This document shows, piece by piece, positions 9,035 through 10,379 of a DNA stretch of 64,000 nt. Both the position numbers and the translations under genes were made by a program. How positions within the stretch are numbered: position 1 is the stretch's first letter; every line of letters starts with the position of its first letter. The DNA is from Octopus vulgaris (lineage: Eukaryota), in NCBI GenBank assembly GCA_951406725.2, contig OX597814.1, positions 19,840,001-19,904,000 of the forward strand. The letters run 5' to 3'. The notes beneath the pieces were generated by a model. That model was given only the letters and a program-made list of their open reading frames with translations, had not been told where the DNA came from and did not search any database.

Positions 9035-9448
9035 ATAAACATCGTTTAAATTGCATTTTCAAACCTTTTTTCTTATATAATCCCACTCGTGCGATATCCC
9101 ACAACTCAACTTTTATATATATATATATATATATATATATATATATATATATATATATATATATATATATATATATATATATATATATATATTATATATA
9201 TATATATATATATATATATATATATATATATATATATATATATATATATATATAAGTAATACTAAGCAATTAAGGGTTTAGCAACGAATTGCCTCACCAC
9301 ACACCGAATTTAGAAATAGCAGTCAAAGAGATATAGCTATTCCTTCTACTAAAAGGGAGATCTCAGTAAAAACACAGCACTTGAAAGGCAAACACAGACA
9401 GGTAAGAAAGAATGAAATGACGGCAATCTATCATACAATTTTAAGTTA

Positions 9449-9540
9449 CCTACGGACGTACGTTTCGAAATCAAGTTTTAGGAAAGCATAAGAATTAGAA
9501 AATTCTACCTTACCCAAACTTCTTTTCTCATCGGCGTAGG
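9449..9540 (-). ncRNA. Type I hammerhead ribozyme (copy 1)
   Basis: cctacg-CCGATGA-gaaaagaagttt...aaacttgatttc-GAAAC-gtac-GTC-cgtagg. Stem I is a perfect 6 bp, stem III is the palindrome ACGTACGT and the triplet is GUC. Confidence 0.8.
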
Positions 9541-10031
9541 ATACTACAATTATGAATAATTGTATATTAAATTTTGAGATACTAGAAGGTATTATCTCAA
9601 CTCAGTGTCAGAGCGAGCCAAAGCATTACCAGTACCACGAAATTCAAAGTGTGAATGAAAGTTTGTGTCACCAGCCCCCCCTCCACCCGCGTGTAGCCAA
9701 GACAAGATGCTGTAGTCATTTACTGGGATAAAATATGGTTATCAGTAACAATAAAGGGTGAAATTAATTAATTTGGAATAATTATTAATTACACCAAGTA
9801 GATTTCGGCATGTAAAAGCCTCATTCGAGGAAAATTTAAGTAATACTAAGCAATTAAGGGTTTAGCAACGAATTGCCTCACCACACACCGAATTTAGAAA
9901 TAGCAGTCAAAGAGATATAGCTATTCCTTCTACTAAAAGGAGATCTCAGTAAAAACACAGCACTTGAAAGGCAAACACAGACAGGTAAGAAAGAATGAAA
10001 TGACGGCAATCTATCATACAATTTTAAGTTA

Positions 10032-10123
10032 CCTACGGACGTACGTTTCGAAATCAAGTTTTAGGAAAGCATAAGAATTAGAAAATTCTACCTTACCCAA
10101 ACTTCTTTTCTCATCGGCGTAGG
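10032..10123 (-). ncRNA. Type I hammerhead ribozyme (copy 2)
   Basis: Identical to 9449-9540 and 583 bp away. Confidence 0.8.
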
Positions 10124-10379
10124 ATACTACAATTATGAATAATTGTATATTAAATTTTTTTTAAACCCTTAATTGCTAAACCCTTAATTGCTTAGTATTA
10201 CTTAAATTTTCCTCGAATGAGGCTTTTACATACCGAAATCTACTTGGTGTAATTAATAATTATTCCAAATTAATTAATTTCACCCTTTATTGTTACTGAT
10301 ATAGATATATATATATATATATATATATATATATATATATATATATATATAATATGTGTGTGTTTGTGACCGTGTATGA

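What the first reader, a model, noticed from the sequence alone, without database searches (positions are those of the whole stretch)
9253..10301. Tandem hammerhead element predicted to release a 583-nt retrozyme-like (possibly circular) RNA
Seen: two ~322-bp direct repeats separated by a 261-bp spacer, each with an intact minus-strand type I hammerhead (6-bp stem I cctacg/cgtagg, CCGAUGA/GAAA core, palindromic stem III, GUC). Predicted cuts at 10038/10037 and 9455/9454 are 583 nt apart. A partial inverted copy caps the element, it sits in (TA)n, and it has no ORF. Known: Penelope pLTRs carry such ribozymes, and retrozymes are non-coding hammerhead repeats that yield monomeric circular RNAs. 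Inference: this is a young non-autonomous, Penelope-mobilised retrozyme-like family in a cephalopod, in which the two copies could self-cleave as a dimer.
Basis: partly seen in the sequence, partly recalled or inferred. Interest (0 to 1): 0.75.

Follow-up and report, generated by a model that had tools for sequence, protein, structure and literature searches.

The report
Penelope-type hammerhead repeat, head-to-head insertion
This is one copy of an abundant family of small non-coding jumping elements that sit in TA repeats and carry a self-cutting-RNA motif; they are likely copied by a borrowed Penelope-type enzyme from mostly uncut RNA, and this copy's motif has a core change predicted to weaken it, so the proposed circular RNA remains unproven.

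Summary
The sequence description holds, except that the hammerhead is not 'intact': its core CCGAUGA is a U4C variant. The 'two repeats plus spacer' are 1.55 head-to-tail copies of a 583-nt unit, and the 'inverted cap' is a second arm. The family is dispersed (1,415 exact hits of a 24-mer), has no ORF and lies in (TA)n. Arms end at two fixed sites about 100 nt apart (A, B). All 49 two-armed insertions are head-to-head; 43 of 49 pair A with B, none A+A or B+B. This is the one-sided Penelope 'tail', best explained by two primings from two RT start sites. Hammerhead stems covary across sister families, but 92 of 166 arms run through the cut site, 5' ends do not pile up there, some arrays are heteromeric, and the U4C lineage still spread (392 hits). 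Linear, mostly uncut multimer templates fit better than a monomer circle; a circle is untested. No partner element was found. Verdict: a new member of non-autonomous Penelope derivatives (non-LTR retrozymes). The scan noted the same layout in other genomes.

The parts
9114..9254 (.). (TA)n target, left flank; no target-site duplication can be read
9255..10158 (-). Arm A: 904 nt = 1.55 head-to-tail copies of the 583-nt unit; 3' end at family site A (9255), 5' truncation at 10158 (unit position q262; q1 = 9836 read on the minus strand)
10032..10123 (-). Type I hammerhead, upstream copy: stem I CCUACG/CGUAGG, U4C core CCGAUGA, 61-nt stem II, palindromic stem III; predicted cut 10038|10037
9449..9540 (-). 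Type I hammerhead, downstream copy, identical; predicted cut 9455|9454
9455..10037 (-). Predicted 583-nt monomer if both cuts occurred (fold z = -4.9; no evidence that it exists)
9740..9933 (-). Domain shared by all sister families (q487 to q97 of the next unit); holds sites A and B and a conserved long-range stem around site A; inferred RT binding and priming region
9576..9836 (-). 'Spacer' = unit positions q1-261: tail (q1-97) plus non-coding linker
10159..10176 (+). Head-to-head junction: a few T plus a 15-nt duplication (10162-10176) of the start of arm B
10177..10301 (+). Arm B: q557-583 plus the 97-nt tail (10205-10301); 3' end at family site B
10302..10355 (.). (TA)n target, right flank

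Best explanation
The stretch is a head-to-head, two-armed insertion in (TA)n of a dispersed, non-coding 583-nt hammerhead-bearing unit, likely copied in trans by a Penelope-like RT/GIY-YIG protein from a linear, more-than-unit RNA that was mostly not cut by its ribozyme. Shown: unit, copy number, TA targets, two fixed 3' ends, A+B pairing, no ORF. Inferred: a tandem source copy is transcribed through more than one unit; the protein binds the conserved domain, nicks both strands of a TA run, and primes one DNA end at site B and the other at site A about 100 nt upstream; both cDNAs run through cut sites, stop at varied points and are joined at their truncated ends. The hammerhead is an old, selected part of the unit, but efficient cleavage is likely not needed for transposition, and this copy's U4C form is predicted to be slow.
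For: Dispersal: 2,346 first-look candidates, best copies 96-100% identical on many contigs; 1,415 exact 24-mer hits. Ends: of 117 complete insertions, 49 are two-armed, all head-to-head; 43 have A+B, 6 have one end elsewhere, none A+A or B+B (binomial p=2e-13); one-armed: 52 A, 16 B. In the contig-C1 sample alone 24 of 25 are A+B. The rule recurs by inspection in two sister families and in one autonomous Neptune-like copy, L066. In 21 of 43 pairs neither arm contains the other, against fold-back of one cDNA. 137 of 150 3' ends have a TA run within 30 nt. Uncut template: 92 of 166 arms cross the cut site; 5 of 166 5' ends lie at q380-390 against 9 and 8 in the flanking 20-nt bins. Linear template: 10 of 27 second-pass 5' ends at q400-570 fall in q482-496 (window chosen afterwards, nominal p=6e-5); arrays with unlike units at L005, L018, L245 and a period-3 pattern at L105. 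The 30 C4 segments form one clade nested among U4 segments in a 92-segment tree (midpoint root, no support values), and C4 has 392 exact hits. Known mechanism: a Poseidon protein cleaves and extends both strands, starts RT at two internal sites that define the tail, and uses unprocessed RNA; hammerhead mutants still insert (PMC11167929, main text).
Against: No autonomous element sharing the ends was found: none in 64 GIY-YIG-centred or extended PLE loci, 30 loci around a second RT type whose flanks may not reach the 3' ends, or by eye in Naiad_Ovul and Naiad_Obim; the enzyme is inferred from the layout. The tail (about 100 nt) is longer than the 30-40 bp described. Of 20 TA-flanked 5' ends within 25 nt upstream of the cut, 3 fall exactly on it, a weak hint that cut RNA is sometimes copied. 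Young arrays such as L028 and L029 have nearly identical units, which a circle would also give. The q482-496 cluster could be an RT pause; no snRNA-type promoter motif lies upstream. The sample is partly biased to near-full-length copies.
Confidence: 0.7

Rival explanations
1. Classical non-LTR retrozyme cycle: dimeric hammerheads cut the multimer, a host ligase closes a 583-nt circle, and a PLE RT copies it by rolling circle into tandem arrays.
For: Hammerhead stems pair in 95.8% of cells across 12 family and sister representatives, 7 of 12 pairs with changes on both sides, 0 of 500 shuffles as high (rows were picked by a pattern that demanded stem I pairing, so partly circular). Palindromic stem III in all; dimer helix -9.8 kcal/mol. 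Monomer folds well (z=-4.9). Arrays of up to 6 units. Arms crossing the cut site fit a ligated circle too. Coral, mussel and axolotl repeats do form circles (PMC7229834, parts 2-4).
Against: U4C core in this copy; preferred 5' end at q482-496 and heteromeric arrays are not expected from one monomer circle; 8 of 9 Xenopus dimers did not cleave in vitro (bioRxiv 10.64898/2026.07.22.740005). A circle may exist for U4 lineages without being the template.
Confidence: 0.22
2. Ordinary pLTR stump of an autonomous Penelope-like element, with a local duplication.
For: Same tail and inverted layout as autonomous PLEs; one arm (L092/L251) abuts a truncated Neptune-like ORF.
Against: Whole units repeat head to tail with no ORF between; tblastn with five PLE proteins of this genome hit only 2 of 130 family loci (L092, L173), both separate neighbours, and none of 70 further loci; the abutting family has its own unrelated pLTR; the unit has no PLE protein similarity.
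Confidence: 0.05
3. Assembly duplication or chance arrangement.
For: The two repeats differ by only one indel and sit between microsatellites.
Against: The same tandem and inverted layouts with fixed ends occur at over 100 other loci.
Confidence: 0.02

Closest known systems
Metazoan non-LTR retrozymes (Cervera and de la Pena 2020, PMC7229834, parts 2-4 of 6 read; Li, Clavereau and Pollet 2026, bioRxiv 10.64898/2026.07.22.740005, parts 1-3 of 5 read)
   Same: Non-coding tandem units, one type I hammerhead each, low GC (36%), dispersed monomers to multimers, co-occurrence with PLEs; 583 nt is within the 51-972 bp range of the 2026 preprint.
   Different: Longer than the 170-400 nt circles shown in 2020; 61-nt stem II; U4C core here; no circle or cleavage shown; fixed A/B ends and head-to-head insertions were not in the parts I read; a pLTR of a named PLE could not be matched.
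Complex insertions of EN+ Penelope-like elements: inverted 5'-truncated pLTR with one-sided tail (Arkhipova 2013, PMC3846280, passages; Craig 2021, PMC8557442, passages and supplement parts; Frangieh 2024, PMC11167929, main text)
   Same: Head-to-head inversion, tail at one end, two RT start sites, AT/(TA)n targets, hammerhead upstream of the 3' end.
   Different: No ORF; tail about 100 nt rather than 30-40; here the one-tail rule is strict (43 of 43 classifiable) where the papers say 'optionally' or 'often'.
Non-autonomous Chlamys elements such as MRC1 (Craig 2021, passage)
   Same: [quoted passage not shown]
   Different: They resemble their autonomous partner at the 3' end and mostly lack hammerheads; no partner match was found here.
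Natural U4C hammerhead variant of a viroid (Perreault 2011, PMC3088659, passage)
   Same: Same core change; said to lower activity considerably in vitro yet allow infectivity.
   Different: Here it marks an expanded genomic lineage; its activity is unmeasured.

Membership tests
Non-LTR retrozyme | Non-coding unit in head-to-tail tandem repeats | tested here: met
Non-LTR retrozyme | One type I hammerhead per unit, able to fold | tested here: met
   active fold 3.9 kcal/mol above the minimum as a monomer
Non-LTR retrozyme | Canonical catalytic core (CUGANGA...GAAA) | tested here: not met
   Window copy is U4C; sister lineages are canonical
Non-LTR retrozyme | Dispersed mobile family without LTR, PBS or PPT layout | tested here: met
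   the apparent LTRs are tandem overlap
Non-LTR retrozyme | Self-cleavage in vitro | not testable with these tools
   needs a bench assay
Non-LTR retrozyme | Accumulation as circular monomer RNA | not testable with these tools
   only assembled contigs are offered, and the ligated junction equals the genomic sequence
Non-autonomous EN+ PLE derivative | Two fixed 3' ends, tail on one side, head-to-head inversion, 5' truncation | tested here: met
Non-autonomous EN+ PLE derivative | Microsatellite or AT-rich target like resident PLEs | tested here: met
   137 of 150 ends; resident Neptune-like copies also end in (TA)n
Non-autonomous EN+ PLE derivative | Terminal sequence shared with an autonomous PLE | tested here: inconclusive
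   none found; only 150 of 6,136 GIY-YIG candidates were scored
Autonomous PLE | RT plus GIY-YIG ORF between pLTRs | tested here: not met
snRNA-promoter-driven hammerhead repeat | U1/U2-type proximal element about 57 nt before the 5' end | tested here: not met
   ATCAGT[GC] (or ATTAGTG) precedes most U1 and U2 genes printed; absent from the unit's sense strand

The most novel reading that the evidence does not exclude
A large radiation of about 560-600-nt retrozymes in this animal that gives a natural test of two open Penelope questions: every inverted insertion is made by one protein complex priming the two DNA ends from two different fixed sites, and a lineage with a crippled ribozyme core spread as well as canonical ones, so the hammerhead serves the RNA's own life (making a stable circle in the U4 lineages) rather than transposition.
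Probability: 0.25. Interest if true: 0.55.

Novelty: new member of a known kind. Interest (0 to 1): 0.33.

Why it matters
The role of hammerheads in Penelope-like elements is described as unclear (PMC8557442), and how inverted insertions form is unsettled. This family offers thousands of short copies, sister lineages with canonical and U4C cores, and a strict A+B end rule, so it is a handy test set. It does not by itself show a new kind of element. My paper searches listed no description of a cephalopod retrozyme family, but repeat databases such as Repbase and Dfam, most subscription papers and the preprint's supplements could not be seen.

Tried and rejected
Rfam scan: no hammerhead hit. RNA: no RNA holder listed; eight contig sets (seven guessed RNA, one unknown) hold pieces of family members, cannot show strand, ends or circularity, and their 'goes back 580-584' joints are what tandem genomic copies give. 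A 70-nt GT..AG stretch right behind the hammerhead (9449-9380, minus) looked like a Penelope-type intron; no joint skipping it was listed. Idea that a weak ribozyme gives longer arrays: arms with two or more hammerheads were 22 of 63 (C4) against 9 of 90 (U4, p=2e-4) and 10 of 84 in another U4 lineage, but 19 of 76 in a third canonical-core lineage (p=0.26 against C4); each count is from the first 100 listed matches; lineages are not independent replicates; left as unproven. snRNA-promoter lead from e1-8663845: not met. Partner search: Neptune-like families, a Poseidon-like RT, Naiad_Ovul/Obim and the Hydra-1_oBim hammerhead row gave no match. Coincidence of the two arms' 5' ends: 8 of 43 within 20 nt against 4.3 expected, p=0.05, inconclusive. 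One search (truncations near q516) showed scattered ends and was not used further. One search used misnumbered columns and was replaced. The domain's consensus fold has few two-sided changes (6 of 33 pairs), so its structure is only weakly supported. Sequence look-up of earlier findings gave nothing.

Full report
Observation. The window has direct repeats at 9253-9575 and 9837-10158 that differ by one indel, a 261-bp stretch between them, an inverted copy of 9740-9868 at 10173-10301, and (TA)n on both sides. Each repeat holds a minus-strand type I hammerhead with stem I CCUACG/CGUAGG, a 61-nt stem II, GAAA, the palindrome ACGUACGU and GUC; the predicted cuts are 583 nt apart. No frame exceeds 69 codons. 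The core, CCGAUGA, is not canonical: U4 is C. Rfam does not find the motif. Below, q numbers count along the unit on the minus strand, q1 = 9836; the cut lies after q382.

It is a dispersed family. A search of the own genome gave 2,346 candidates; the 40 scored were 96-100% identical over the unit and lay on many contigs. A 24-mer has 1,415 exact hits, a sister pattern 3,923. Loci hold whole units head to tail, up to 6 in a row, so the 'spacer' is part of the unit and the window's left arm is 1.55 units. Five PLE proteins taken from this genome hit 2 of 130 family loci, both separate neighbours, and none of 70 further loci. The family is non-autonomous and the locus is not an assembly oddity.

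Two fixed ends. 3' ends fall at site A (q564-583) or site B (q85-104 of the next unit). Among 117 complete insertions (those cut by a locus edge dropped, duplicates merged), 49 have two arms; all are head-to-head, 43 join an A arm to a B arm, 6 have one end elsewhere, none is A+A or B+B. The loci were best BLAST hits and first pattern hits; the less biased contig-C1 set alone gives 24 of 25. The window copy fits: A at 9255, B at 10301. Two sister families and one autonomous Neptune-like copy show the same pattern on inspection. In 21 of 43 pairs neither arm contains the other, so fold-back of a single cDNA does not explain them. This is the inverted pLTR with a one-sided tail known from Penelope-like elements (PMC3846280 and PMC8557442, passages), which in vitro work ties to two internal RT start sites and to cleavage and extension of both strands (PMC11167929, main text). 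I infer one priming at each site, one per DNA end. Whether both use one RNA molecule is open (p=0.05).

The ribozyme. Sister units of about 560-595 nt keep a hammerhead at the same place with different stems and cores CUGAUGA, CUGAAGA, CUGAGGA, CUGACGA or UUGAUAA. On 12 representatives 95.8% of cells pair and 7 of 12 pairs change on both sides, above all 500 shuffles, though the rows were chosen for stem I pairing. So the motif is old and was selected. U4C is derived: 30 C4 segments form one clade inside U4 in a tree of 92 segments (no support values), and it has 392 exact hits against 345, 143 and 447 for three canonical-core patterns. A viroid U4C variant is much slower in vitro but sufficient in vivo (PMC3088659, passage), so the copy is predicted weak, not dead.

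Which RNA is copied. 92 of 166 arms cross the cut site and 5' ends do not pile up there (5 at q380-390, 9 and 8 in neighbouring 20-nt bins). Genome-wide, 3 of 20 TA-flanked ends within 25 nt upstream lie exactly at the cut, at most a small share. That leaves uncut multimers or ligated circles. Two things favour linear RNA: arms longer than one unit stop preferentially at q482-496 (10 of 27), the start of the domain shared by all sister families; and several arrays mix unlike units (L005, L018, L245; period 3 at L105). Against: young arrays with near-identical units fit either model, and the cluster may be an RT pause. An apparent link between U4C and longer arrays did not hold in a third lineage.

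The enzyme. The genome has a young Neptune-like family with an open 781-aa RT plus GIY-YIG frame, TA-flanked ends and its own 40-nt tail, and several older PLE families. None shares the unit's ends in the loci read, nor do the published octopus Naiad consensus ends by eye. The partner is unidentified; only 150 of 6,136 GIY-YIG candidates were scored.

Comparison and verdict. It works like a non-autonomous Penelope derivative and meets the sequence definition of a non-LTR retrozyme at family level (PMC7229834, parts 2-4; bioRxiv 10.64898/2026.07.22.740005, parts 1-3, whose supplements were closed; PMC4209133, parts 1-2, proposes both dimer cleavage and circles). The window copy fails the canonical-core feature, and cleavage and circles could not be tested. 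Earlier notes of this scan report the same head-to-head layout in other genomes; they are unchecked and not counted as support. New member of a known kind, interest 0.33: the strict A+B count and the expanded U4C lineage are useful, not surprising.

Noticed in passing
window 7547-7879 and 8747-9079: 333-bp inverted repeat (99%) with internal 44-bp subrepeats around 867 bp of microsatellite-rich DNA, next to (TA)n; looks like a MITE or fold-back element.
   Followed up: no
window 10704-10785, 11216-11297, 30154-30740: Copies of another short interspersed repeat, also as a 218-bp tandem.
   Followed up: no
L064 244-5490 (G000:C6:133343000-133351000): Young Neptune-like PLE with an open 479-aa frame, an open 781-aa RT plus GIY-YIG frame, a 504-bp pLTR, a U3/A8-core hammerhead and a 40-nt tail; many near-identical copies, possibly active.
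   Followed up: partly
L092 1100-1560 / L251 3968-5649: A family arm's site-A end abuts, across four bases, a 5'-truncated copy of another Neptune-like family in the same orientation; nested insertion or template switch.
   Followed up: partly
L102/L105 (G000:C1:50432223-50435750): Six-unit array whose units repeat with period 3 (units 1 and 4 share two variants); a trimer template or a later duplication.
   Followed up: partly
L263 about 2430-2600: Short pieces of the unit in their normal order, separated by TA-rich runs; odd decay or an assembly artefact.
   Followed up: no
L252 300-1190: Unrelated head-to-head hammerhead element with a long stem II, an 8-nt palindromic stem III and a tail of about 90 nt on one arm.
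   Followed up: partly
L185, L193, L212, L301: Sister non-coding families (about 561-594 nt) sharing the terminal domain but with different hammerheads, one with the U3/A8 core; some carry a motif upstream of the domain that loosely resembles the U1 upstream element.
   Followed up: partly
L114, L231-L249: A lineage with canonical core but A instead of G at position 10.1, leaving an A-C mismatch at the base of stem II; another possibly weakened ribozyme that spread.
   Followed up: partly
window 9449-9380 (minus): 70-nt GT..AG stretch with a pyrimidine tract starting in the last base of stem I; intron-like, no splice joint listed.
   Followed up: partly
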